From positions 9,611 through 73,610 of the IMG/VR virus record IMGVR_UViG_3300010392_005355: 64,000 nucleotides of DNA. The stretch is one strand, 5' to 3'. The position numbers and the translations under genes are program-made. Shown here in pieces: positions 3,986-53,065 of the stretch. Each line of letters opens with the position of its first letter. Positions within the stretch are counted from its first letter, which is position 1. The notes below the pieces were generated by a model. The model was not told where the DNA came from and searched no databases. It worked only from the letters and a program-made list of their open reading frames with translations. The DNA comes from a virus.

Positions 3986-4250
3986 CATCTTCCAGGCATT
4001 TGGTGGGAACAGCGAGATCGCTGAAATCACGGGCGAGAAATACCCGACGGTTTCCAGCTGGCTTCTTCGCTGCAGTATTCCGCCCAAGCACTGGGGCGCT
4101 CTCGTGGAGGCCGCATCGGCACGCGGGATCGATCTTGATTTCGCCGGGCTTGCCCAAATCGCCGCCAACCGCGCGAAGGAGAAGGCCCTCCGGTCGAAGG
4201 AGGCGCGAGCGGCACAAAGCGCGCGCGTCAGACCGGAGCCAGCCCAATGA
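3969..4250 (+). CDS. cro: Cro-like HTH protein
   Basis: Divergent from cI; IFQAFGG…TVSSWLLRCSIPPKHW Cro-type pattern. Confidence 0.85.
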   Translation: MRFVKDIFQAFGGNSEIAEITGEKYPTVSSWLLRCSIPPKHWGALVEAASARGIDLDFAGLAQIAANRAKEKALRSKEARAAQSARVRPEPAQ

Positions 4251-4552
4251 CTCCGGCCGACCGCATCCATTGTTCGTGCGCTTCGTGCGCAACGTCGAAA
4301 ACGGCCTCAGCATCCGTCCCCCCTTATGCTGCGCGCCGGAGCAGGGCGGGCATTGCGTCCCCCACCCAGCCTGTCCGCCCTGCTCAATCTTTCCATCTGC
4401 TCGGCAAGGTCGATCTTGCGCCGTGCGCTGACGATGAGAAACGAGGCCGCCGCCAGCAAGTGGTCAACCTCGTTTCTCAGTTCTTCCGGTCTGTTGTGTT
4501 GCATCTATTGCGCAAAGCCTCCTTTCCGAAACGGATATGGAGCGAATGAGCC

Positions 4553-8266: not shown

Positions 8267-8658
8267 GCTGGAGAGAGTACGAGCCCGCAACTAGCCAACA
8301 TCATGAGCGATATGGCGTGTGGGTCAGCTGTGAAAAGAATTCTAAATCCCAGCACAAACCCATCATTGTCATCAGGATTTATCCAGACGTCCTTGAGAAA
8401 GCAGAAATACTGACAGAGGGGTCTGCCGTTCGCGTATTCTTTGGTGAGGGAGAGCACGTAGGTAAGCTTCGCATCGAGACAGACAGAAGCGCCAAGCTGA
8501 AGCTGCGCAGAGAAACCAAGCTCAAGACCTATGCACTCTATGTTAGAGTGCGACACCCAGACTTTAGAGAAAAATTCCCGTACAGAAATGTTCAGTACAC
8601 CGTGAACGCCCCTGATCGAATTACCCTAGATCTTGGTACCGATGGAGGGGCATCATGA
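8263..8658 (+). CDS. Hypothetical phage protein
   Basis: ATGA-coupled on both sides. Confidence 0.65.
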   Translation: MSWREYEPATSQHHERYGVWVSCEKNSKSQHKPIIVIRIYPDVLEKAEILTEGSAVRVFFGEGEHVGKLRIETDRSAKLKLRRETKLKTYALYVRVRHPDFREKFPYRNVQYTVNAPDRITLDLGTDGGAS

Positions 8659-9164
8659 GCGCCTGGACGCCAGCCGAGGACCGGCTTCTCAAAAACGAGT
8701 GGATCGCAGGAAAGCGTGCGCTGGATGTGATGGCATCAATCAATCGGGAGTTCGGGACCAACCGTAGCCGGAACTCCGTCCTGGGGAGGGTTCATCGTCT
8801 CGGCCTGTCTGGCCGCGCGAAGACGCCCACACGCCCCGTTCGGGTGAAACCGCCCCGCAAGCCGCGACAAACCAACCGCCAGCGCCCGAAAGCGGCCCAG
8901 TCCTTGCCACCGGCCCCAAAACCACAAAAGCCGGCTCCCGAGCCAATCGCTGCCGACATGCTGCTGGTAGAGATCACGGAGCTGACCCGGAACCAATGCC
9001 GATGGCCGGTGGATGAGCGCACCGATGGCACGCACCTGTTCTGTGGCCTGAGGCAAGCGGAGGGGGCGTCATATTGCGCCGGTCATCTGGCCAAAAGCAT
9101 ATCCCCCCTCTCTGAATCGACCTTGAAGCGTGCACCCGTCAGCATGAAGAAGGCCATGTCATGA
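8655..9164 (+). CDS. gcrA: GcrA-like cell-cycle regulator
   Basis: WT…SRNSVLGRVHRLGLSGR N-terminus; LTRNQCRWP…FCG…SYCAGH C-terminus. Confidence 0.88.
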   Translation: MSAWTPAEDRLLKNEWIAGKRALDVMASINREFGTNRSRNSVLGRVHRLGLSGRAKTPTRPVRVKPPRKPRQTNRQRPKAAQSLPPAPKPQKPAPEPIAADMLLVEITELTRNQCRWPVDERTDGTHLFCGLRQAEGASYCAGHLAKSISPLSESTLKRAPVSMKKAMS

Positions 9165-9376
9165 AGAAGCCAGCCCCTGTGGATGTGAGAAGCCGCAAGG
9201 CCATGATCCAGCGTGAGGAGCGTCTTGCCTTCAAGATACGGGCCTTCTGGAATGCGCGAAATTACGAGGTCACGACCCGGATTGAAGACGCCGGTTTCAG
9301 CAACAAGGGCGGGCAGGCCCTCGTGATGGTTCGTTCAGACATGATCAATGGCCTGCCGGTTGCGAGGGTGAAGTAA
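9161..9376 (+). CDS. Hypothetical phage protein
   Basis: Coupled ORF; VRSDMINGLP motif. Confidence 0.65.
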   Translation: MKKPAPVDVRSRKAMIQREERLAFKIRAFWNARNYEVTTRIEDAGFSNKGGQALVMVRSDMINGLPVARVK

Positions 9377-9915
9377 TGGCAAAGCGACTGAAAAGCCGTG
9401 CCGGACGAAAACGCAGGCAGGCTGTGGCCAGAGAGCCAAGCGGCCGCGTTGCCAAGCGTGCACGTACGCCGCTTCAGGATACCAGGCCTACGCCGGAAAT
9501 CCGGAAACGCCGCGAAATACTGCTCGGCTCTCATGATGCGCAGGGGGAGCTTGAGTGCATCCTTGATGTTCTTGCGGCCCCGTCACGCCGCCTGATCACA
9601 TCAAAGCAGGCCGAGGCAGGCAGGCGCTACGCCATGGCCAAGCTCGCCCTTCAGCGTTCGATAGGCATCAGCCCGGACCCGGTTACTCCAAGTCTTTCCG
9701 AGTGGATCGACAATGGCCAAACGATTGGAGATGGCGCCGATGATGGTCTGGCCGCCTTCCGGTGGCGCAAGGCGTGGCTGTGCGTTCATGACTGCGGCGC
9801 TGATGTTAAGCGCATCATGGAGGCCGTGTGCATCGATAACCAGCCCCCAAAGACGCATCAGGTGACCAAGCTGAGGATTGGCTTGGATGCACTGATCAGG
9901 ATGTGGAGGCTGTGA
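9376..9915 (+). CDS. Putative late activator/antiterminator (Q position, DUF6456/GafZ-like)
   Basis: Near end of early operon, upstream of late promoter; QAEAGRRY…AVCID…LRIGLDALIRMW pattern. Confidence 0.55.
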   Translation: MAKRLKSRAGRKRRQAVAREPSGRVAKRARTPLQDTRPTPEIRKRREILLGSHDAQGELECILDVLAAPSRRLITSKQAEAGRRYAMAKLALQRSIGISPDPVTPSLSEWIDNGQTIGDGADDGLAAFRWRKAWLCVHDCGADVKRIMEAVCIDNQPPKTHQVTKLRIGLDALIRMWRL

Positions 9916-10127: not shown

Positions 10128-10291
10128 TGGAAGGGTTTAAATCCAAGGGGACAGTTTACAGCTATAGCGCAAAGGAAAACACCTCTGTTTGCTTCCAGAT
10201 TTCATCGCCAGAATATGTGATCCGAGACTTCAACCGCCTTCGTAGGCTGTACCCTATCCGGCACAAGATGCGCCCAGGAAGCCGCAAGTAA
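10127..10291 (+). CDS. Small hypothetical protein
   Basis: GGAGG RBS, TGATG coupling. Confidence 0.45.
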   Translation: MEGFKSKGTVYSYSAKENTSVCFQISSPEYVIRDFNRLRRLYPIRHKMRPGSRK

Positions 10292-10315
10292 TCCACAGCA
10301 TCTTGATGGGATCGC

Positions 10316-10404
10316 TTGACACGCGAAATAACTCGCCCCATAAGTGTCCTCGAAATTCAGAATCGAAAGTTGCGCCCGTAGGTCACCCCTGCGGGCGCTT
10401 CTGA
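10316..10404 (+). promoter_or_regulatory. Late promoter (pR'-like) with following hairpin
   Basis: TTGACA (10316) -17 nt- CATAAG; 11-bp stem GCGCCCGTAGG/CCTGCGGGCGC (10372-10398). Confidence 0.7.
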
Positions 10405-10644
10405 TTCCTGCGGCGGCGTGGATAGACACGCAGTCGAGAACCTGTGACGAGATGACGTGGCGACACCCCACCAGAAAAACGGGGCAAGCGGCGTCGGCTT
10501 GAGAGTAGGTGAGTGACGACTATCGCCCCTGTCGTGTGTCCGTATCCAGAATTTGAAGTCTGGTTGGTGCATCACGGGGAATGAGCGGCCACTGCTCAAG
10601 AAAATCATCTCTAGCCGGTAACCAGCCCGGCCCGCAGGAAGCCA
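10405..10644 (+). ncRNA. tRNA-like structured ncRNA candidate with long insert
   Basis: 9-bp closing stem TTCCTGCGG/CCGCAGGAA followed by GCCA; D-arm-like GCGTG-GATAGA-CACGC; T-arm-like GCCGG-TAACCAGC-CCGGC; internal stems GAGATGA/TCATCTC and CTTGAG/CTCAAG; no credible ORF. Confidence 0.65.
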
Positions 10645-10792
10645 CCCCCCGCGCAGCGTGCTGCCGGGTCTCTGCCACTCGCGGAGCATTCGGCCCCGGC
10701 CTCTTCCCGTCTCAAACACGGGTACGCCGGGGCTATCTATTTCAGGGGATATCCATGTGCAGTCATTGCTTGGTAGAGGGAATGCTCGACTG

Positions 10793-10987
10793 ATGGCTAG
10801 TGACCGCCCCCTCTTGGTTCACCTCCGCATTGACCAAGCCTCGATGGAGGCCGCCATCCATGACCTGGAGCGCCACTACCTGAAATACGGCGATCCCCCG
10901 CAGCCCCACATGAAAGCGGAAGCCGAGCGCAACATGGCCCGCATTGTGAACTGCATCCACCAGTCGTGCTTTGACACCGAGATCTAA
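10793..10987 (+). CDS. Small hypothetical protein
   Basis: ATG overlaps stop of a 12-codon uORF; phage-like codon use. Confidence 0.5.
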   Translation: MASDRPLLVHLRIDQASMEAAIHDLERHYLKYGDPPQPHMKAEAERNMARIVNCIHQSCFDTEI

Positions 10988-11077
10988 CCCCCTTCACCGC
11001 CCGGCCCTGAAGCCGGCCCTCACCTTTCCTCCCTTGATAGAGGCCCTGAGCATCTGAGACGCCGGGCGGTGATCACT

Positions 11078-11701
11078 ATGACCCAAAGACCTAAACCACC
11101 AGAAACGCTATTCGATATCGAGAATATCGGAACATTCACCCCAGCCCCCGAGATTATTGACTGGGCGAGGCAGACCTTAATCAATGAGGGCGCCTCGCTT
11201 CATAATCCGGAGCATGCCCATCTTGAGCACGCAATTATCGGCGCCCTCTGGACCAATGTTCCTAATTCCAAGAATGGCCGCGTCATTCTTGCCCAAGCCG
11301 AACCTGGCGATCCGATGGCAATGGGCAAGTGGGCTAAAGCCCGTGCACGACAACAAGTCGAGCAATGGTTCGGCAATATCCCCGACTTCATCCTGACCTT
11401 TGATGCGGGGTATGCCGCGACCTGCAGTGACATCGAGTTTTGCGCTCTTGTTGATCACGAGCTTATGCACTGTGCTCAAGCAACAGACGAGTATGGGCAG
11501 CCCAAATTCAGCAGGACCACCGGCCTTCCAATATGGGCCATGAGAGGCCACGACATAGAGGAGTTTACCTCAATCGTTCGGCGATACGGTGCTGAGGCAG
11601 CTCATGCTGATGCGTTCATACAAGCCGCAAGGCAGGGGCCGGAGATCGGCGAGGCCAGTATCGCGCGCGCATGTGGTGTTTGCCTCCCTCGCGCCGCATG
11701 A
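11078..11701 (+). CDS. Phage putative metallopeptidase
   Basis: HELMH (HExxH) and HDIEEF…IVRRYG motifs; usual position before terS. Confidence 0.85.
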   Translation: MTQRPKPPETLFDIENIGTFTPAPEIIDWARQTLINEGASLHNPEHAHLEHAIIGALWTNVPNSKNGRVILAQAEPGDPMAMGKWAKARARQQVEQWFGNIPDFILTFDAGYAATCSDIEFCALVDHELMHCAQATDEYGQPKFSRTTGLPIWAMRGHDIEEFTSIVRRYGAEAAHADAFIQAARQGPEIGEASIARACGVCLPRAA

Positions 11702-11728: not shown

Positions 11729-12211
11729 ATGGCAGAGCAGAAGTTAACCGACTCCGAAAAGGCCTTTATCGTCCAGCAGCTGGCCTGCTTTGACAGCCCC
11801 CTGACTGTCGCCAAGGCGGTCAAGGATGAGTTCGGCAAGGATATCAGCCGCCAACTTGTCGAAAGCCATGATCCAACAAAGAAGGCCGGACAATCCACAG
11901 CTAAGAAGTGGAAGGAGCTTTTCCAACAGACACGGAAGGCTTTTCTGGAGGACACTGCGGAGATCGGGATCAGCCACCGCTCTGTAAGACTGCGGGCCAT
12001 CCAGCGCATGGCCGACAAGGCTGAAAGCATGGGTAACATGGTCCTTGCTGCATCACTTCTGGAGCAGGCCGCCAAGGAAATGGGCGAGAGCTACACTAAC
12101 CGCCGCCTACACGAGCACTCCGGTAAGGATGGCGGCCCCATCCATACAGAGAACCGCACATGGCGAGACGTTCTGAGGCAGGAGGATCAGACAGAGGGCG
12201 AGAACAGCTAA
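11729..12211 (+). CDS. terS: Terminase small subunit (DUF2280-like)
   Basis: FIVQQLACFDSP…LLEQAAKEMG…EHSGKDGGPI; precedes terL. Confidence 0.85.
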   Translation: MAEQKLTDSEKAFIVQQLACFDSPLTVAKAVKDEFGKDISRQLVESHDPTKKAGQSTAKKWKELFQQTRKAFLEDTAEIGISHRSVRLRAIQRMADKAESMGNMVLAASLLEQAAKEMGESYTNRRLHEHSGKDGGPIHTENRTWRDVLRQEDQTEGENS

Positions 12212-13614
12212 AAGGCAGCACCTACCTTACCAACCCGAACCTGTGGGATTTCTGGGAGGAAGTCTTTCTGGGCGGTATTGATACGGCTGTTTTGCATGGC
12301 GGTCGTTCCAGCTCAAAAACGCGGGACACGGCCTGTCAGCTGGTCCGCCTGGTCAACCATGTTCGTGTGAAGATGAGGGTGCTCTGCATCCGGCGCTTCC
12401 AGAACCGCATTCAGGACTCAGTCTACACAGAGCTGAAATGGGCTATTGGGCACCTTGGCTTGAAGGATGAGTTCGAGGTCCAGAAGACCACAATCATTCA
12501 CCGGGCAACCGGATCTGAGTTCCTGTTCTACGGCATCGAACGGAACCTCGAAGAGATCAAGGGCATGTCCGATGTGGACATCCTCTGGATCGAGGAAGCG
12601 GAAAAGCTCACTGAAGACCAGTGGATGGTGATCGGGCCGACGATCCGTAAGGAAGGCAGTCTGGTCATCCTGCTGTTCAACCCGAAACTCGTCACCGATT
12701 ACGTCTGGAAGAACTTCGTGGTGAACCCGCCGCCTCACACGGTGGTCCGGAAGATCGACTATACGGAAAACCCGTTCCTTTCCAAGAAGGCCTTGCGTGA
12801 CATCGCAGCGATGCAAGAGCGCGACCCGGAGATGTTCGAGCACGTCTATGGCGGCGTTCCGCTCGGAGACAGTGAGCTCTCGATATTCAAGCGCCGCTGG
12901 CTGGACGCCTGCGTTGATGCTCACAAGGTGCTCAATCTGGAGCTGACAGGCCGGAACGTGGTCGGCTTTGACCCTGCAGATGGCGGGGAAGACAAGGCGG
13001 CTACGGCCAGCAAGGTTGACGGCGTCTTCACGGACTCTGACGACTGGCAGACAGACAAGGACGAGCTGGTTCAGAACACCCGAAAGGTCTGGGCAAAGGC
13101 GAGGCTGATCAATGCGACGGTCTCCTACGACACAGTCGGCATCGGTTCGTTTATCGGCGGGTATGTCGATGAGCTTAACCAGGCAGAGGGCGCGAGTGTC
13201 GAGCACTACGCCTTTCATGCTGGCGGCGGCGTCATGGACCCGGATCAGCCCAGCGACGCCTTGAACGACAACAGCCCGCTCAACAAAGACGAGTACCTGA
13301 ACCTGAAAGCGCAGGCTTGGGCGAACACGGCCCGGCGCGCCATGCTGACGTTCAACGCGGTCACACGTGGCCAGTCCATCAAGCCAGAGGATGTGCTGTC
13401 TTTCTCTTCCGAAATGGGCGAGCGCAAACTGGACGCGCTGTTCACGGAGCTCTGTGTACCCTGGTGGGTTGAGAGCGAGGGCAAGAAGCGCGTGGTACCA
13501 AAGCTGAAGCTGAAGAAAGACCTCGGCGTCAAGTCGCACAACCTCGCTGATGCGGTCATCGCCGCTGACAATATCAACATCGCCAAGACCGGCTATGACT
13601 GGGATAATTTCTGA
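12160..13614 (+). CDS. terL: Terminase large subunit (PBSX-like)
   Basis: GGRSSSKT Walker A, LWIEEAE Walker B, LFNP motif III, GFDPA nuclease motif, SHNLADA. Confidence 0.95.
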   Translation: MARRSEAGGSDRGREQLKGSTYLTNPNLWDFWEEVFLGGIDTAVLHGGRSSSKTRDTACQLVRLVNHVRVKMRVLCIRRFQNRIQDSVYTELKWAIGHLGLKDEFEVQKTTIIHRATGSEFLFYGIERNLEEIKGMSDVDILWIEEAEKLTEDQWMVIGPTIRKEGSLVILLFNPKLVTDYVWKNFVVNPPPHTVVRKIDYTENPFLSKKALRDIAAMQERDPEMFEHVYGGVPLGDSELSIFKRRWLDACVDAHKVLNLELTGRNVVGFDPADGGEDKAATASKVDGVFTDSDDWQTDKDELVQNTRKVWAKARLINATVSYDTVGIGSFIGGYVDELNQAEGASVEHYAFHAGGGVMDPDQPSDALNDNSPLNKDEYLNLKAQAWANTARRAMLTFNAVTRGQSIKPEDVLSFSSEMGERKLDALFTELCVPWWVESEGKKRVVPKLKLKKDLGVKSHNLADAVIAADNINIAKTGYDWDNF

Positions 13615-25062: not shown

Positions 25063-25515
25063 ATGGCACAAGCAAAGACCATGAAGTTCGGCGCAGCAAT
25101 GATTATGCTGGGCGACGGAGCTTCCTCTGAAACGTTCGCCGCGCCCTGCGGGTTCACCGAACTGACCATGACGGTGAACATCGAGAGCAACACGACAAAT
25201 ATCCCTGACTGTGCAGACCCGGACTTTCCGGCCTGGCTGATCTCTGATGTCGTGTCCAAGCAGATGACCCTGCAGGGCTCTGGTGTCCTCGATACCGACG
25301 CCATGCAGACGTGGCAGGACTGGTGGTTCGGCAATGAGTCCGAGATCAATGTCCGTTGGTTCCGTGACCTCAGCTCTGCCGAAGGTGGCGGCTATTTCGA
25401 GGCCCCGGCGATCCTGACCTCCTATGAGGAAACCGGCTCACGTGGCCAGCGCTGGCAGGTCAGTGTCGCCATCGCAATGAACGGCAAGCCGACTTTCACG
25501 CCCGGTAACTCTTAA
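25063..25515 (+). CDS. Major tail tube protein
   Basis: GDGASSETFAAPCG…PDCADPD; synteny. Confidence 0.88.
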   Translation: MAQAKTMKFGAAMIMLGDGASSETFAAPCGFTELTMTVNIESNTTNIPDCADPDFPAWLISDVVSKQMTLQGSGVLDTDAMQTWQDWWFGNESEINVRWFRDLSSAEGGGYFEAPAILTSYEETGSRGQRWQVSVAIAMNGKPTFTPGNS

Positions 25516-25952
25516 TGCCGGGACCGTACCGAAGCTGTGAGGTCGAACTGACCTTTGCAGATGCCGACTATACCTTCCGGCTCCCGATCAAACGGATCGC
25601 GGAGCTGGAAGAGAAGTGCCAAGCCCCCATTGGTACGATCTGGAAGCGCGTTCTGACAAGTGAATATCACGCCGTTGATCTGGTCGAGACCGTCCGTATC
25701 GGCTTGATCGGCGGCGGCCTTGAGGCCCAGGAAGCGCGCACTCTGATCGAGCGGTATTGCGATGTCTGGCCGCTCGAAATCTGGCATGCCCACGCAACCG
25801 CGATCCTGTCGGCCTGCATCATTGGATATGAGGCTGGGGAGGAAAGCGACGCCCCAAAGGACGAGGCGGCGGGGGAGGATACTTCAACCTCGCCGCAGCC
25901 TACGCGGTCGGCCTCGAAAAAGGCATCAGCCCGAAAGAAATCGGCAACCTGA
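25515..25952 (+). CDS. Tail assembly chaperone (G-like)
   Basis: FADADYTFRL…ELEEKC…ETVRIGLIGGG. Confidence 0.85.
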   Translation: MPGPYRSCEVELTFADADYTFRLPIKRIAELEEKCQAPIGTIWKRVLTSEYHAVDLVETVRIGLIGGGLEAQEARTLIERYCDVWPLEIWHAHATAILSACIIGYEAGEESDAPKDEAAGEDTSTSPQPTRSASKKASARKKSAT

Positions 25953-37499: not shown

Positions 37500-37806
37500 T
37501 CTCACAACAATTCTGGCGACAGCAGAGCGCACCCTCGGCGTGCTCAAGATGCTGGAGCCAATCCTTTCTGACACTCCATATGTCTCTGATGTCCTGGGCG
37601 TAATTGCCCGCGTCCTCGACGGTGCCCGCACCGGTAAGGTCGCATACGAGACGCTCGTGACGGAGCTGGAAGAACTGAATGTCGAGATGGAGGCGATCCG
37701 CGCGCGCGGTGAAGTCACCGGTGACGACATTCGTGACGAGGTTTCTGCCATCAAGCAGCGCGGCGAGCGTATCGACGCCCTGCTGGCACGCCTCGACGCC
37801 GAATGA
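37492..37806 (+). CDS. Helical hypothetical protein (lysis region)
   Basis: AGGAG RBS, overlaps upstream gene. Confidence 0.65.
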   Translation: MANLTTILATAERTLGVLKMLEPILSDTPYVSDVLGVIARVLDGARTGKVAYETLVTELEELNVEMEAIRARGEVTGDDIRDEVSAIKQRGERIDALLARLDAE

Positions 37807-37947
37807 CGCCTGACTAATCCGGCGTCGGAGTGTGGCCGGGCAGGGGCTTGGGGGCTTGTTTGCCCGGCCACACTCAACTCTCAACGGAGGATGCCATGCT
37901 GCATGCGGGACTCATCAGCGGCAATGGCGCTAAAGACGGGGTGTCAT

Positions 37948-38364
37948 ATGCCACCAATCAAATTCGTAGCCTATGGCATCAATCTGGCGATTGGGGCCAC
38001 GGCAGGCGCAGCCGCGCCAACATTTCCCTCGATGGTGGTTGCGGCCGCATGCGCCGGTTCTGCCTCTGCCATCGCATTCAACGCATTCAACGGCAAGGAC
38101 AGGCCGGTAGAGACAATCGTCTGGCGTGTGGTCAAGTCCTTCATCTTCTTTCTGATCGGTGTGGCGTTTGGTCTGTTCATGGGCAACTCAATCGCCGGGA
38201 TGCTGCCGGGTGTGGATCTGATCGGCGGAACCTTTCTAGGCGGCCTGCTTGGCTACGCGCTGACGGCCGTGCTTCTGAGCGGAAAGATAAGGGAGGCATA
38301 TTTGGAAGCCATTCTGGCCGTCCTGCGTATTATGTCAAAGGACAAGCCAAATGACGATCACTGA
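37948..38364 (+). CDS. Multi-TM membrane protein, holin-like
   Basis: Three to four hydrophobic helices; lysis region. Confidence 0.6.
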   Translation: MPPIKFVAYGINLAIGATAGAAAPTFPSMVVAAACAGSASAIAFNAFNGKDRPVETIVWRVVKSFIFFLIGVAFGLFMGNSIAGMLPGVDLIGGTFLGGLLGYALTAVLLSGKIREAYLEAILAVLRIMSKDKPNDDH

Positions 38365-41676: not shown

Positions 41677-41750
41677 GCGGGTATAGCACAATGGTAGTGC
41701 AGCAGCCTTCCAAGCTGAGTATGTCGGTTCGATTCCGTCTACCCGCTCCA
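41677..41750 (+). tRNA. tRNA-Gly(TCC)
   Basis: GCGGGTA/TACCCGC acceptor stem, CTTCCAA anticodon loop, GGTTCGATTCC T-arm, encoded CCA. Confidence 0.97.
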
Positions 41751-41968
41751 AGCCTTTCTCTCTCACATCGATAAGTTTTTCCGCAGGACCATCAGCAGGG
41801 CCTCGATCAGGCCGATGGCGATTCGAGCCCTCGCCTCACCCTCAAGCACGCCGCCCTGCCGGGCGGTTTTTGGGGTGAAGAAAGTGTGAATGAAAGGTTT
41901 TGGAGTGACTTTGAATTATTGGTCCATTTAGGAGTAAAATTAATTCCGCTTCCCGTAAGATAGACGTC

Positions 41969-43792
41969 ATGCGTTTATCGACCATCACCAATGTCGCCTA
42001 TGTCACCACGGTAGCGCTTTCCATGATTGCGGGCGCCGCCATGCTGATGGCCTCCAATTCCATGCGAGCCGAGCGCGCCGCCGTGCAGCAGCGCCATGTG
42101 CTGGACAAGGCCACGTCAGGGCTGGACCGCGAGATATTCTACCAGTCTGAAAAGGCCCGGGAATATGTCATCTCCGGCAATTCGGAATATCTGGAAGACT
42201 TCAAGGCAGGCGTCGTCAATCTGAATGACACGCAGGCCATGCTGAGCCGTGTCACAGATGCGGGGGCGAGCCAGGAAGAATTGTCCACTTTGGTGACGGC
42301 AGTCGACATGGCGAAGACGCTGGTCAACGACCAGCAGCGCGCCATTGAGGCCTTTCAGGCCGGTGACATTGAAACGGCACGCAAGATGCTGTTTAGCGAC
42401 CATTATGAAGGCGAACTGGGCCTGATCGATTCCACCATTCTGCGCTTTCAGAGCCTGCTGGACCAGCGCACACAGGCGGAGGTGGAGGAGTCCATCCGCC
42501 GCTCGCACTTCTGGCGGGTGCTGTCTGAAGTGGTTCTGGCCGTAACGGCCCTGATGTTCCTGTGTGTTCTGTATTTCATCCTGAAGCGCCGTATCCTGCG
42601 CCCGGTGGTCAAGCTGAGCGATGTGGTCACCCGTCTGGCGGCGGAGGATTACACCGTCGAGATGAGTGAATTCCACCAGATGGACGAGATCGGCGACATG
42701 GCCGAGGCGGTGAAGGTCTTCCGCGAAAACGGCCTGGAGCGCCTGCGCCTTGAGAAGAAGCTGGAACGGGATCTGAAGCTGCGCAATCTGCTGAGCCGCA
42801 TGACGCACCGGATGCAGGCGTGTGAGAGCAAGCAGGAGGTGGCCAATGTTGTGCGCCTGTTCCTGCCGGTTATCCTGCCGGGCTATGCGGGCAGGATGTA
42901 CCTGTTTGACGAGAGCGATACCGTCATGCGCCAGGTTTGCGACTGGCTTGAGCCGGTCGGCTCGGCAGCGACATTCGCTCCCGGTGACTGCTGGGCGATC
43001 CGGCGAGGCGCGCCGCATCGTCAGGGCGGGGATCAAACCGACATGCCCTGCCAGCATATGTTCTCGCCGGGCCATGTGGAGGGCGAACTGGAAAACAATG
43101 TCGCCACACTCTGTGTTCCGCTGACAGCGCAGCGCGAGGTGATCGGCCTGTTGTATTGCGAGATCCCGGAAGGCCTGATCAGCATCGAGGAAGAGCACTA
43201 TGTGTTCATGATGGCAGAGAATATCTCCCTGTCGCTGGCCAACATGCATCTGCGTGAGGAGCTGCAAGAGCAGGCCATGGAAGACGCCCTGACGGGCCTG
43301 TCCAATCGCCGCAAGATGGAGCAGCGCCTCGGCACATTATTGTATGATGCGCGCGAAACCGGCCAGCCGGTCAGCTGTATCATGCTGGATGTGGATAATT
43401 TCAAATCCTTCAACGACACATATGGCCACGAAATGGGCGACCGTGTGCTGAAGGAAGTGGCCAATGTGCTGACATCCCATACGCGGGAAGACGGCCTGGC
43501 TTTCCGCTATGGCGGGGAGGAGTTTGTCATCCTGCTGCCAGGCGTCGAGCCGGGCGATGCGGTGCGCCGGGCCGAGAGCATGCGCAAGGCTATTGCTGCG
43601 CTGCACTTCAATTTCAACGACACGCCTGTCGACAAGGTCACCGCCTCTTTCGGGGTCGCAACTTCGCCTAATCACTGTTCTGGCAACAGGCTGATCATGA
43701 CGGCGGATGCGGCGCTGTACGAGTCCAAGGAACAGGGCCGTAACCGCGTTACCAAGGCCCTGCTCAGCGCGAATGAGGGCATGGTGGCGTAA
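41969..43792 (+). CDS. Membrane diguanylate cyclase (periplasmic sensor-HAMP-GAF-GGDEF)
   Basis: Two TMs; DEIGDMA HAMP; DALTGLSNRR, DVDNFK, RYGGEEF. Confidence 0.93.
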   Translation: MRLSTITNVAYVTTVALSMIAGAAMLMASNSMRAERAAVQQRHVLDKATSGLDREIFYQSEKAREYVISGNSEYLEDFKAGVVNLNDTQAMLSRVTDAGASQEELSTLVTAVDMAKTLVNDQQRAIEAFQAGDIETARKMLFSDHYEGELGLIDSTILRFQSLLDQRTQAEVEESIRRSHFWRVLSEVVLAVTALMFLCVLYFILKRRILRPVVKLSDVVTRLAAEDYTVEMSEFHQMDEIGDMAEAVKVFRENGLERLRLEKKLERDLKLRNLLSRMTHRMQACESKQEVANVVRLFLPVILPGYAGRMYLFDESDTVMRQVCDWLEPVGSAATFAPGDCWAIRRGAPHRQGGDQTDMPCQHMFSPGHVEGELENNVATLCVPLTAQREVIGLLYCEIPEGLISIEEEHYVFMMAENISLSLANMHLREELQEQAMEDALTGLSNRRKMEQRLGTLLYDARETGQPVSCIMLDVDNFKSFNDTYGHEMGDRVLKEVANVLTSHTREDGLAFRYGGEEFVILLPGVEPGDAVRRAESMRKAIAALHFNFNDTPVDKVTASFGVATSPNHCSGNRLIMTADAALYESKEQGRNRVTKALLSANEGMVA

Positions 43793-51898: not shown

Positions 51899-53065
51899 AT
51901 GAAACCCATCTGGCCTTTCCGATTGCCCCAGCGCGAGGCGAAAGCGGCGGTGCCTCTGGTCGCGCTATCAGAAATCGGGACGGCCAGATGGGGCGCCCGC
52001 GATGGCGCGGCGTTGACGCGGGACGGGTATCTGCAGAATGCCGTGGCCTATCGCGCGGTGCGCATGGTGGCCGAGGCGGCGGCGTCCGTTCCGCTGGTGA
52101 CGGCGCACGATGGCGCGGCGCGGCTGATCCGCAGGCCGCAGCCGGACGGCGTGGCGGCGGAACTGTTCGAGGCGGTCTATTCCCAGCTTCAGCTGACCGG
52201 CAATGCCTTTCTGGAAGGCGTCTGCCTGGAGGCTGTGGGGGCGGCGGCCAGTGGGGCGGCCAGTGGGGCGGATGGGGCGGGGGTGTCTGCGCTGTATGCG
52301 CTGGCCCCGTCCGCCATGCGGCCGCTGAAGGATGCGCGCGGCTGGGTGGAGGCCTGGGCCGTGAAGGAACGCCATGGCGAGCGGGTGATCCGCCGCGATG
52401 CAGAGACGGGCTGGAGCCCGGTGCTGCACCTGAAACTGTTCAACCCGGTGAATGACACGTTGGGCCTGGCCCCGCTGGGCGCGGCGCGGCGGGCGCTGGA
52501 CCTGCACAATGCGAGCGCGGACTGGGCGAAGGCGCTGATCGATAATTCGGCCAAGCCCTCCGGCGCGCTGGTCTATGGCGGGCATGGGCGGATGCCGCCG
52601 GACCAGTTCGAGGCGCTGAAGACGGAGCTGGAGAGCATGTATTCCGGCGCCAGCAATGCGGGGCGGCCCCTGCTGCTGGAGGGCGGGTTGGAGTGGCGGC
52701 CGATGTCTCTGTCGCCAGCGGAGATGGATTTTCTGGAGGCGCGGCATGGCGCGGCGCGGGAGATTGCGCTGGCGCTGGGCGTGCCGCCCATGCTGTTGGG
52801 GATTCCGGGGGATAATACGTATTCGAACTATAAGGAGGCGAACCTCGCCTTCTGGCGGATGACGATTTTGCCGCTGGTGCAGAAATTCGCGGGCGCGCTG
52901 TCGGCCTGGCTGGATGTGCCATTCGGGCAGGATGTGGAGATCCGCGCAGACATTGACCGCGTGCCGGCCCTGTCGGCCGAGAGGGATGCGCTGTGGGCGC
53001 GGCTGGAAGGCGCGAGCTTTGCGACCGCAGAGGAGAAGCGACGTCTGGCGGGGCTGCAATCATGA
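51899..53065 (+). CDS. GTA portal protein (HK97 family)
   Basis: GYLQNAVAYRAV…VLHLKLFNP…LGIPGDNTYSNYKEAN. Confidence 0.95.
   Translation: MKPIWPFRLPQREAKAAVPLVALSEIGTARWGARDGAALTRDGYLQNAVAYRAVRMVAEAAASVPLVTAHDGAARLIRRPQPDGVAAELFEAVYSQLQLTGNAFLEGVCLEAVGAAASGAASGADGAGVSALYALAPSAMRPLKDARGWVEAWAVKERHGERVIRRDAETGWSPVLHLKLFNPVNDTLGLAPLGAARRALDLHNASADWAKALIDNSAKPSGALVYGGHGRMPPDQFEALKTELESMYSGASNAGRPLLLEGGLEWRPMSLSPAEMDFLEARHGAAREIALALGVPPMLLGIPGDNTYSNYKEANLAFWRMTILPLVQKFAGALSAWLDVPFGQDVEIRADIDRVPALSAERDALWARLEGASFATAEEKRRLAGLQS

What the first reader, a model, noticed from the sequence alone, without database searches (positions are those of the whole stretch)
10405..10644. tRNA-shaped ~240-nt ncRNA ending in GCCA at the head of the phage late operon
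Seen: a 9-bp acceptor-like stem TTCCTGCGG (10405-10413)/CCGCAGGAA (10632-10640) followed by G-CCA. After a 2-nt linker comes a D-arm-like hairpin GCGT-GGATAGAC-ACGC. A 5-bp T-arm-like hairpin GCCGG-TAACCAGC-CCGGC is stacked directly on the acceptor strand. The anticodon arm is replaced by ~180 nt of nested stems (GAGATGA/TCATCTC, CTTGAG-AGT/ACT-G-CTCAAG, CCAGA/TCTGG). It lies just after the late promoter, where lambdoid phages often carry tRNAs. The T-loop is non-canonical, so tRNA scanners would probably miss it. Inference: a tRNA-mimic RNA (decoy for anticodon nucleases or tRNA-sensing defences, RNase P-processed leader, or antitermination element). I cannot assign it to a named family.
Basis: partly seen in the sequence, partly recalled or inferred. 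Interest (0 to 1): 0.78.

Follow-up and report, generated by a model that had tools for sequence, protein, structure and literature searches.

The report
Structured RNA cassette in phage late leader
A roughly 240-base folded non-coding RNA sits just behind the late promoter and its terminator in a marine prophage, has three relatives in sister phages at the same spot where others carry a methionine tRNA, but is not itself a recognisable tRNA.

Summary
Fold statistics alone are weak: among 52 stretches of the window bounded by a perfect 9-bp inverted repeat, this one ranks 8th by z-score.

Comparison decides it. A covariance model found the element in 3 of 7 sister IMG/VR phage loci. In all four cases it sits directly behind a promoter-plus-terminator leader that is conserved in 7 of 7.
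- L031: long form, 65 bits.
- L032 and L034: ~125-nt short forms.

The same slot holds tRNA-Met in three sister phages and a DUF6527 ORF in two.

The tRNA reading is only partly borne out:
- The 7-bp stem, 2-nt linker, 5' hairpin and stacked 5-bp 3' hairpin are kept in 3 of 4.
- The 3' hairpin is missing in L031.
- GCCA occurs only in the window.
- The loops are not tRNA-like.
- Rfam and ARAGORN find nothing.

One metatranscriptome contig covers only the element's core.

Verdict: a real, unnamed accessory RNA of the late leader. Its function is unknown and tRNA mimicry is unproven.

The parts
10316..10345 (+). Late promoter-like site: -35 TTGACA at 10316-10321 and -10-like CATAAG/ATAAGT at 10339-10345
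   Evidence: Read. TTGAC is invariant in 7 of 7 aligned leaders. The simple consensus scan did not call it (0 promoters) because the -10 is poor.
10372..10406 (+). T1: promoter-proximal intrinsic-terminator-like hairpin (11 pairs, 5-nt loop) followed by UUCUGAUU
   Evidence: Called by the scan. The hairpin and U-run are conserved in 7 of 7 leaders with varying arm sequence. In relatives the U-run is better (UUUUUCGUU).
10405..10413 (+). P1 5' strand (conserved core CCUGCGG at 10407-10413)
   Evidence: I4. Inner 6 pairs are invariant in 4 of 4. The 7th pair is C-G in the window and L032, U-A in L034 and U-G in L031.
10416..10431 (+). H1: 5' hairpin ('D-arm-like'), GCGUG-GAUAGA-CACGC
   Evidence: Pair probability 0.99. 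4 of 5 pairs change on both sides across the 4 sequences, 95% of cells paired. 3 compensatory pairs in the model-free L032/L034 alignment.
10433..10448 (+). Small hairpin Hx (GUCG...UGAC)
   Evidence: Forced fold. 100% paired in the window and L031, one pair changed on both sides (helix 3).
10449..10455 (+). P2 5' strand GAGAUGA, which pairs with 10605-10611
Evidence: L031 has GAAGUGA/UCACUUC, i.e. 2 compensatory pairs. Not in the window's MFE (probability about 0.001). Forcing P2 costs +4.6 kcal/mol.
10456..10493 (+). H2 hairpin with a CCCC/GGGG tip and an A/C-rich loop
   Evidence: Kept in L031 with one compensatory and one wobble change (helices 6-7).
10498..10503 (+). P3 5' strand CUUGAG, which pairs with CUCAAG at 10595-10600
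Evidence: L031 has ACUGAG/CUCGGU, predicted there at probability 0.84-0.91. Read by eye that is 2 compensatory changes and 1 wobble.
10527..10579 (+). H3 long hairpin; tip CCAGA-AUUUGAAG-UCUGG at 10546-10563 is the most conserved block
   Evidence: CCGUAUCCAGnAUUUGAAGnCUGGUUGG is identical in L031 except for one compensatory A-U to C-G change.
10595..10611 (+). 3' strands of P3 (10595-10600) and P2 (10605-10611)
10614..10631 (+). HT: 3' hairpin ('T-arm-like'), GCCGG-UAACCAGC-CCGGC, abutting the P1 3' strand
   Evidence: Probability 0.93-1.0. The stem is invariant in the window, L032 and L034, and the loops differ (8, 10 and 8 nt). Absent in L031.
10632..10640 (+). P1 3' strand CCGCAGGAA
10641..10644 (+). 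GCCA tail (not conserved)
   Evidence: relatives read. One DNA run shows an extra C in the following C-run.
10690..10747 (+). T2: long GC-rich hairpin (GGCCCCGGC...GCCGGGGCU) followed by AUCUAUUUC
   Evidence: Folded. 91% identical over 54 nt in L032. Not called by the simple scan because its loop is too long.
10793..10987 (+). Small ORF (64 aa), no family match
   Evidence: GC-phase signal is present from about 10800.
10995..11071 (+). Long-range stem CACCGCCCGG (10995-11004) / CCGGGCGGUG (11062-11071) that encloses a CCUCC-rich loop and overlaps the ribosome-binding site of the metallopeptidase-like gene (ATG at 11078)
   Evidence: Read. Variants CACCACCCGG/CCGGGUGGUG (L029, L030) and CACCGCCUG/CAGGCGGUG (L033) keep the pairing.

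Best explanation
It is an optional ('moron'-like) non-coding RNA cassette in the 5' leader of the phage's late (packaging and structural) operon.

The leader, as read from sequence:
- Transcription starts at a conserved promoter around 10316-10345.
- It meets a conserved intrinsic terminator T1 (10372-10406) within about 50 nt, laid out like the pR'-tR' unit of lambdoid phages.
- Only polymerases that read through T1 transcribe the element.

The element folds into a closed domain:
- a closing stem P1, with a conserved 7-bp core;
- a 5' hairpin H1 after a 2-nt linker;
- a nested rod P2-P3 carrying side hairpins H2 and H3;
- in 3 of 4 members, a 5-bp 3' hairpin stacked on P1.

I infer that this compact domain is a stable RNA that acts as RNA, probably after being cut out of the leader by host RNA-processing enzymes. 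It is not a protein-coding stretch or a double-stranded DNA site.

Shown:
- it is non-coding;
- homologues exist at the same site;
- covariation supports the structure, and the G-U pairs fit the + strand;
- the slot is shared with tRNA-Met and DUF6527 cassettes.

Inferred:
- promoter and terminator activity;
- read-through;
- processing;
- any downstream job.
For: Non-coding:
- There is no third-position GC signal across 10290-10790.
- No family matches the ORFs on either strand.

Homologues at the same site:
- L031:4929-5140, 65.1 bits, E 1.2e-18.
- L034:4174-4298, 17.0 bits, and L032:4117-4244, 12.5 bits, with filters off.
- Each begins 6-7 nt after T1, or in L031 directly after a tRNA-Met.

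Conserved leader: promoter, initial transcribed region, T1 and the 12 nt behind it align in 7 of 7.

Covariation:
- On the model-fitted alignment A3, 89.9% of cells are paired and 18 pairs change on both sides, with 0 of 500 shuffles reaching either value. Slid partners give 35-42% paired and 0-5 such pairs.
- The nested model gives 92.0% and 20 pairs.
- MAFFT plus RNAalifold, not fitted to my model, recover P1 (1 compensatory pair) and H1 (3) in L032/L034. They recover P2 (2) in window/L031.
- Many G-U pairs on the + strand (pair tables) would be A-C mismatches on the other strand.

Accessory nature:
- The element is in 3 of the 7 sister loci plus the window.
- The same slot holds tRNA-Met in L030, L031 and L033.
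- It holds a DUF6527 ORF in L029 and L033.

Expression hint: in one metatranscriptome run, the only contig on the 1001 nt laid covers 10429-10592, inside the element, at depth 9.
Against: - There are only four sequences, which form two similar pairs. The main alignment was fitted to a structure derived from the window itself, and that inflates the pairing counts.
- The short forms fold no better than shuffles: z is -0.56 and -1.08.
- The window's own ensemble does not favour P2/P3.
- The RNA contig is a single Logan contig. It shows no strand, no ends and no level, and DNA carry-over cannot be excluded.
- The promoter was not called by the consensus scan.
- No Q-like or other known late regulator was recognised upstream.
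- Nothing shows that the RNA is cut out of the leader or that it has any effect.
- None of the 23 IMG/VR and 2 GenBank phage loci sharing the downstream metallopeptidase gene carries it.
Confidence: 0.6

Rival explanations
1. It is a true tRNA mimic. The P1 plus 3'-hairpin stack (7 + 5 = 12 bp) with the 5' hairpin imitates the acceptor/T/D part of a tRNA, so host tRNA enzymes or tRNA-directed defence nucleases would bind it. Candidates are RNase P, the CCA-adding enzyme and anticodon nucleases. The variable interior would be cargo.
For: - The frame is kept in 3 of 4 members with exactly a 7-bp P1 core, a CG linker and a 5-bp hairpin abutting P1.
- The slot is used for tRNA-Met in sister phages, and in L031 the element directly follows a tRNA-Met.
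- From recall, not from a call: phage leader RNAs cut by RNase P are known (P4 CI RNA, P1/P7 C4 RNA).
- Bacterial Y RNAs with tRNA-like domains are RNase P and CCA-enzyme substrates (passages of PMC4201824).
Against: - The 3' hairpin is absent in L031.
- Its loops are 8-10 nt and unlike the T-loop.
- No D-loop GG/A pattern is conserved.
- GCCA occurs in 1 of 4.
- The Rfam tRNA and tmRNA models give nothing at E up to 10.
- ARAGORN finds nothing at default or intron-tolerant settings, and only inconsistent noise at very lax settings.
- There is no sequence similarity to the neighbouring tRNA-Met.
Confidence: 0.15
2. It is a cis-acting leader element. The folded RNA would act on its own transcript: as a put-like processive antiterminator for T2 and later terminators, as a 5' stabiliser, or as a processing site that uncouples the leader from the late mRNA.
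For: - It always lies in the leader between T1 and the first late gene.
- In the window and L032 it is followed directly by the conserved hairpin T2.
- Other conserved RNA stems lie in the same leader, for example 10995-11071.
Against: - It is optional: 4 of the 8 leaders compared lack it yet keep the promoter, T1 and the late genes.
- What follows it differs between members: T2 in two, no T2 in L031 and L034. So there is no constant expression platform.
- T1 lies upstream of it and cannot be affected by it.
Confidence: 0.15
3. It has no RNA function. It would be a recombination scar or a small inverted-repeat mobile insertion at a hot spot of the leader, or a chance fold kept by descent.
For: - The element is bounded by inverted repeats (P1) and sits at a junction (TTYCWGCGG) where different cassettes are found.
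- Fold statistics are unremarkable against matched controls.
- Few homologues are known.
Against: - Compensatory changes in H1, P1, P2, P3 and the H3 tip keep the pairing.
- Only one copy lies in each phage record searched.
- No target-site duplication is seen in the flanks.
- The neighbouring protein is only 54-59% identical between these phages, while the H3 tip is nearly identical.
Confidence: 0.1

Closest known systems
tRNA genes downstream of the late promoter pR' in lambdoid phages
   Same: - Same place in the genome: behind a promoter-proximal terminator and ahead of the late genes.
- Sister phages L030, L031 and L033 carry tRNA-Met exactly there.
- The pR'/terminator logic is described in passages of PMC6266700 and in the abstract listing of PMC7547250.
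- That Stx phages carry tRNA genes at this position is my recall, not a call.
   Different: - It is not a tRNA by any model.
- It is 125-240 nt long.
- It has no anticodon arm, no T-loop and no conserved CCA.
Bacterial Y RNAs (YrlA/Yrn1) with a tRNA-like domain
   Same: - It is a non-coding RNA in which stems are arranged like tRNA acceptor, D and T arms around other helices.
- Some Y RNAs are phage-encoded (passages of PMC4201824).
   Different: - YrlA keeps many invariant tRNA nucleotides and lies next to a Ro60 (TROVE) gene.
- Here no loop consensus is kept, no TROVE gene is in the 73.6-kb record, and there is no Rfam match.
- The paper's supplementary tables of phage YrlA could not be opened.
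Phage leader RNAs matured by RNase P (P4 CI RNA; P1/P7 C4 RNA) (recalled)
   Same: A small structured RNA cut from the leader of a phage operon. A closed stem with a 3' single-stranded tail could serve as an RNase P substrate.
   Different: - Those RNAs act by base pairing in immunity control.
- No match to Rfam's families was found at E up to 10.
- No complementary target was found: the conserved loop's complement CTTCAAAT occurs nowhere else in the window.
- Cleavage was not tested.
put RNA of phage HK022 and other cis-acting processive antitermination RNAs (recalled)
   Same: A structured RNA in a phage leader lying ahead of terminators.
   Different: - put consists of two stem-loops of about 70 nt lying before the first terminator.
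- This element is larger, lies after T1, and is dispensable in sister phages.

Membership tests
tRNA (Rfam RF00005 / ARAGORN) | Cloverleaf recognised by the covariance model or by ARAGORN | tested here: not met
   - No hit over 10405-10644 at gathering score or at E up to 10.
- None in L032, L034 or L031.
- ARAGORN with introns allowed finds none. At very lax thresholds it gives only inconsistent calls on varying strands.
tRNA (Rfam RF00005 / ARAGORN) | 7-bp acceptor stem, 2-nt linker, D-arm hairpin, and T-arm stacked on the acceptor | tested here: inconclusive
   The shape is kept in the window, L032 and L034: a 7-bp P1 core, CG, a 5-bp hairpin, and a 5-bp 3' hairpin abutting P1. The 3' hairpin is missing in L031.
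tRNA (Rfam RF00005 / ARAGORN) | Conserved D-loop and 7-nt T-loop sequences (consensus recalled) | tested here: not met
   - 3' hairpin loops read UAACCAGC, AGUUGAUCGC and AGUGACGC.
- 5' hairpin loops read GAUAGA, GAAAGCUCGAAGA, GAAAGUGGA and CUUG.
tRNA (Rfam RF00005 / ARAGORN) | Anticodon arm and encoded or addable 3' CCA after a discriminator | tested here: not met
   There is no anticodon arm; the interior is 60-180 nt of other helices. GCCA occurs in 1 of 4.
tmRNA | tRNA-like domain plus tag reading frame, found by ARAGORN or Rfam | tested here: not met
   (-m option).
Bacterial Y RNA (YrlA type) | Adjacent Ro60/TROVE gene and a conserved tRNA-like T and D arm | tested here: not met
   No TROVE match in the whole record, while the controls did ring. 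No Rfam match. The defining features come from passages of PMC4201824.
Lambdoid late control unit (pR'-tR' with Q antitermination) | Promoter followed within tens of bases by an intrinsic terminator, upstream of the late genes | tested here: met
   By sequence only. T1 was called, and the promoter and T1 are conserved in 7 of 7. The packaging genes follow.
Lambdoid late control unit (pR'-tR' with Q antitermination) | A Q-family antiterminator gene just upstream | tested here: not met
   - The upstream ORFs have no Pfam, PHROG or NCBIfam match to Q.
- The 179-aa neighbour resembles only uncharacterised phage proteins and DUF6456.
- Its model has no PDB fold match at E up to 0.001.
RNase P-processed phage leader RNA (C4 / CI type) | Match to the Rfam C4 family; cleavage by RNase P | not testable with these tools
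   No Rfam match at E up to 10. Cleavage needs an enzyme assay.
Miniature inverted-repeat mobile element | Terminal inverted repeats, target-site duplication, and many copies | tested here: not met
   Inverted ends are present (P1). No duplication is seen in the flanks. There is a single copy in the record and in five sister records. The host chromosome is not held.

The most novel reading that the evidence does not exclude
The conserved frame would be a phage-made tRNA-shaped scaffold. The frame is a 7-bp closing stem, a 2-nt linker, a 5' hairpin, and a 5-bp 3' hairpin stacked to a 12-bp helix.
- It would carry exchangeable cargo domains: about 60 nt in L032 and L034, and about 180 nt in the window.
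- It would be excised from the late leader by the host's tRNA-processing enzymes.
- It would then serve as a decoy or adaptor for tRNA-binding host factors or tRNA-directed defence nucleases.
- It would complement or replace the tRNA-Met that sister phages keep in the same slot.
Probability: 0.15. Interest if true: 0.8.

Novelty: new variant of a known kind. Interest (0 to 1): 0.5.

Why it matters
- Temperate phages of marine Alphaproteobacteria are poorly studied, and their late-gene control is unknown.
- This locus shows a lambda-like promoter-plus-terminator leader with a cassette slot. The slot holds a tRNA-Met, a small DUF6527 protein gene or this structured RNA.
- If the RNA is stable and made late in infection or by read-through in lysogens, it is a new phage accessory RNA with a tRNA-like outline.
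- It would then be a tractable case for asking what non-tRNA RNAs do in the 'tRNA slot' of phage late operons.
- If nothing comes of it, it is still one more candidate family for RNA databases.

Tried and rejected
DNA and collection searches that found no homologue:
- blastn against 50,697 phage records and 72,556 plasmids found no match to the window's region. The L032 region also found none. The L031 region hit only tRNA-Met genes.
- 23 IMG/VR loci and 2 GenBank Rhizobium phages share the downstream metallopeptidase gene. None has DNA or covariance-model similarity to the element.
- Exact-pattern scans of IMG/VR found nothing new. The scans used both closing-stem strands, the H2 loop, the leader (only L034's own contig) and the H3 tip (only L031's own contig).
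- Relatives cannot be drawn for a virus record. So host-family genomes could not be searched.

Ideas tested and dropped:
- Hidden ORF: no coding signal and no family match.
- Alternative pairing of the P1 3' strand with the T1 3' arm (I3): it is specific to the window and not possible in L034, so I treat it as chance.
- CCTGCGG as a repeated DNA motif: not enriched in the window, 21 found against 19.8 expected.
- Descent from tRNA-Met: local alignments are no better than shuffles except for the GCGGCGG heptamer. The best p is 0.02-0.03 for L032 and above 0.1 for the rest.
- A target for the conserved loop AUUUGAAG: no complementary site in the window.
- The upstream 179-aa protein as a Q-like regulator: no family or fold match.

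Sequencing runs:
- The DNA runs X2-X4 carry identical sequence, so they give no covariation.
- Parts of the stretch have no RNA cover in run X11. That says nothing by itself.

Full report
**What the window is**

The window is part of an IMG/VR provirus record of 73,610 bases. The finding lies in a roughly 500-base gap between two blocks of + strand genes.

Upstream are small genes:
- a GcrA-like gene at 8655-9164;
- an uncharacterised 179-aa gene at 9376-9915;
- two translationally coupled small ORFs ending at 10291.

Downstream is the packaging module:
- a 64-aa ORF at 10793-10987;
- a PhageMetallopep gene from 11078;
- a DUF2280 gene at 11729-12211;
- the large terminase at 12160-13614.

Two results point to a Hyphomonadaceae-like marine alphaproteobacterial host.
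- The named relatives of the 179-aa protein come from Henriciella.
- The named relatives of a gene-transfer-agent-type portal in the flank come from Hyphomonas.

Public runs holding the stretch are marine sediment and hydrothermal vent metagenomes.

**Checking the observation**

ViennaRNA gives -100 kcal/mol and z -3.59 against 200 shuffles. The closing stem and both flanking hairpins hold at probability 0.7-1.0 in all contexts from 240 to 501 nt. The inner long-range stems are not favoured in the window's own ensemble, at about 0.001. The corresponding line was one base out of register.

Two matched controls weaken the statistics.
- The window contains 52 stretches bounded by a perfect 9-bp inverted repeat 150-300 nt apart. 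This one is 8th of 52 by z.
- In a GC-corrected sliding scan of 1392 windows, the neighbouring frames rank 35th to 682nd.

So the fold alone would not persuade.

The region is non-coding. It has no third-position GC signal and no family match for any ORF on either strand. ARAGORN and Rfam find nothing there, even at E up to 10.

**Finding relatives**

Several routes gave nothing.
- DNA searches of the phage and plasmid collections found no match.
- 25 loci sharing the downstream metallopeptidase gene lack the element.

The route that worked started from the upstream 179-aa protein.
- Its homologues are 51-61% identical. I aligned them.
- The alignment retrieved 7 IMG/VR loci.
- I built a covariance model from the window sequence and its centroid fold.
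- It hit L031:4929-5140 at 65.1 bits, E 1.2e-18.
- With filters off it also hit L034:4174-4298 (17.0 bits) and L032:4117-4244 (12.5 bits).
- The other four loci (L029, L030, L033, L035) have no match.
- Each record holds a single copy.

**The conserved leader and its slot**

Reading the loci and aligning the leaders gives the same layout in 7 of 7.
- A -35 TTGAC.
- A conserved initially transcribed stretch.
- A GC-rich hairpin followed by a U-run (T1, called as terminator-like).
- The 12-mer TTYCWGCGGSRG.

What follows that 12-mer differs between phages.
- L030: a tRNA-Met.
- L031: a tRNA-Met and then, with no gap, the element.
- L029: a DUF6527 ORF.
- L033: a DUF6527 ORF and then a tRNA-Met.
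- The window, L032 and L034: the element directly.

This is the layout of a lambdoid late control region, with a promoter that is terminated immediately downstream. It is described in the abstract listing of PMC7547250 and in passages of PMC6266700. It has a cassette slot behind the terminator.

**Structure from comparison**

The four members come in two sizes:
- long forms in the window (236-240 nt) and L031 (212 nt);
- short forms in L032 (128 nt) and L034 (125 nt).

All four fold on their own with the closing stem and the 5' hairpin.

On the model-fitted alignment:
- 89.9% of cells pair and 18 pairs change on both sides;
- 0 of 500 shuffles reach either value;
- sliding the partners by 1-3 columns gives 35-42% paired and 0-5 such pairs.

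This alignment leans towards its own structure, so I also used MAFFT plus RNAalifold.
- For L032/L034 it recovers P1 (C-G to U-A at the 7th pair), H1 (3 compensatory pairs) and the invariant 3' hairpin.

Scoring the nested model on the same alignment gives 92.0% paired and 20 pairs changed on both sides. Forcing it costs +6.0 kcal/mol in the window and +2.1 in L031.

With only two long sequences, this choice is tentative.

The most conserved block is the tip of H3, CCGUAUCCAGnAUUUGAAGnCUGGUUGG, with one compensatory closing pair. Frequent G-U pairs fit the + strand.

**How tRNA-like is it?**

In the window, L032 and L034 the frame has these parts:
- a 7-bp P1 core;
- the linker CG;
- a 5-bp hairpin;
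- a 5-bp hairpin at the 3' side abutting P1.

The last of these makes a 12-bp continuous helix. These are the dimensions of a tRNA's acceptor, linker, D and T parts (dimensions recalled).

Several results speak against a tRNA.
- L031 lacks the 3' hairpin.
- The loops do not resemble D- or T-loops.
- The tail is GCCA only in the window.
- The tRNA and tmRNA models fail on all four.
- ARAGORN with introns allowed fails. Only very lax settings give calls, and those are mutually inconsistent.
- The elements share nothing with the adjacent tRNA-Met beyond GCGGCGG.
- No Ro60/TROVE gene is in the record, so the Y-RNA analogy is not supported by context.

**Expression**

One metatranscriptome run holds a single 164-nt contig of depth 9 on 10429-10592. 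That lies inside the element, and nothing else of the 1001 nt laid is covered. This is a weak hint of an abundant RNA. It shows no strand, no ends and no level.

Three DNA runs carry identical sequence, apart from one extra C in the C-run after 10644.

**Most likely working**

- Shown: a non-coding, conserved, covarying, + strand RNA structure that occurs as an optional cassette behind a conserved promoter-proximal terminator.
- Inferred: polymerases that pass T1 transcribe the element at the head of the late transcript. They may pass by an unidentified antitermination or activation factor, or by leak. Its closed, helix-rich fold makes it a stable species, probably freed by host nucleases. It then acts as an RNA.
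- Optional rather than core: half of the eight leaders lack it and carry other cargo in the slot. So I read it as an accessory function rather than part of the core control circuit.
- Rivals: strict tRNA mimicry (0.15), a cis-acting leader element (0.15), and no RNA function (0.10).

**Limits**

- The family has four members.
- The one genome scan went to a chance hit.
- Supplementary tables of PMC4201824, which list phage Y RNAs, could not be opened.
- I found no paper describing this element in two full-text searches. Those searches were about tRNA-like phage RNAs in general and cannot show absence.

Noticed in passing
window 10995-11004 with 11062-11071: A 10-bp long-range stem CACCGCCCGG/CCGGGCGGUG encloses a CCUCC-rich loop and covers the ribosome-binding site of the metallopeptidase-like gene (ATG 11078). 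Sister leaders keep it with compensatory variants: CACCACCCGG/CCGGGUGGUG in L029 and L030, CACCGCCUG/CAGGCGGUG in L033. It may be a translational control element of the first late gene.
   Followed up: partly
L010-L013 about 2127-2183; L018 1961-2054: Phages related through the metallopeptidase gene carry a tRNA-Met-like sequence that matches the tRNA model only at positions 9-63 and has no acceptor stem. L018 has a 94-nt ARAGORN 'tRNA-Met' whose 3' half diverges. These look like decayed or truncated tRNA genes in the same general region.
   Followed up: partly
window 8655-9164 and 10361-10365; leaders of L029-L033: The phage encodes a GcrA-like protein (Pfam PF07750). A GANTC site lies in the initially transcribed region of 6 of 7 leaders: GAATC in the window, GAGTC in L029-L033. 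From recalled Caulobacter biology, this suggests a methylation-reading GcrA-type activator could drive the late promoter.
   Followed up: no
window 9376-9915: The 179-aa protein next to the late promoter has an arginine-rich N-terminus (MAKRLKSRAGRKRRQ...), is linked to the conserved leader in 7 loci, and has no family or fold match. It is a candidate late regulator or RNA-binding protein.
   Followed up: partly
window 51899-53065 and surroundings (about 48-64 kb): Beyond the prophage the GC content rises to 0.64-0.68. The 388-aa ORF there is an HK97-family portal, up to 69% identical to proteins named from Hyphomonas genomes. It is probably a gene-transfer-agent-like cluster of the host.
   Followed up: no
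window 41677-41750: A tRNA-Gly(UCC) gene lies near the right end of the phage genes and is probably the integration site. A strongly folding stretch follows at 41789-42050 (z -4.3).
   Followed up: no
window 37651-38040, 25470-25806, 2532-2802, 4229-4493: These stretches fold much better than background or shuffles: residual z down to -4.15 in the sliding scan, and z -5.5 to -7.0 among the inverted-repeat-bounded controls. I did not examine them.
   Followed up: no
window 10388-10396 with 10630-10638: The 3' strand of the closing stem is also perfectly complementary (9 nt) to the 3' arm of terminator T1 (I3). This is not possible in L034, so it is probably chance.
   Followed up: yes
L029 4091-4402; L033 4828-5139: A 103-aa DUF6527 protein gene occupies the slot behind T1 in two sister phages. 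This shows the slot takes protein-coding as well as RNA cargo.
   Followed up: partly
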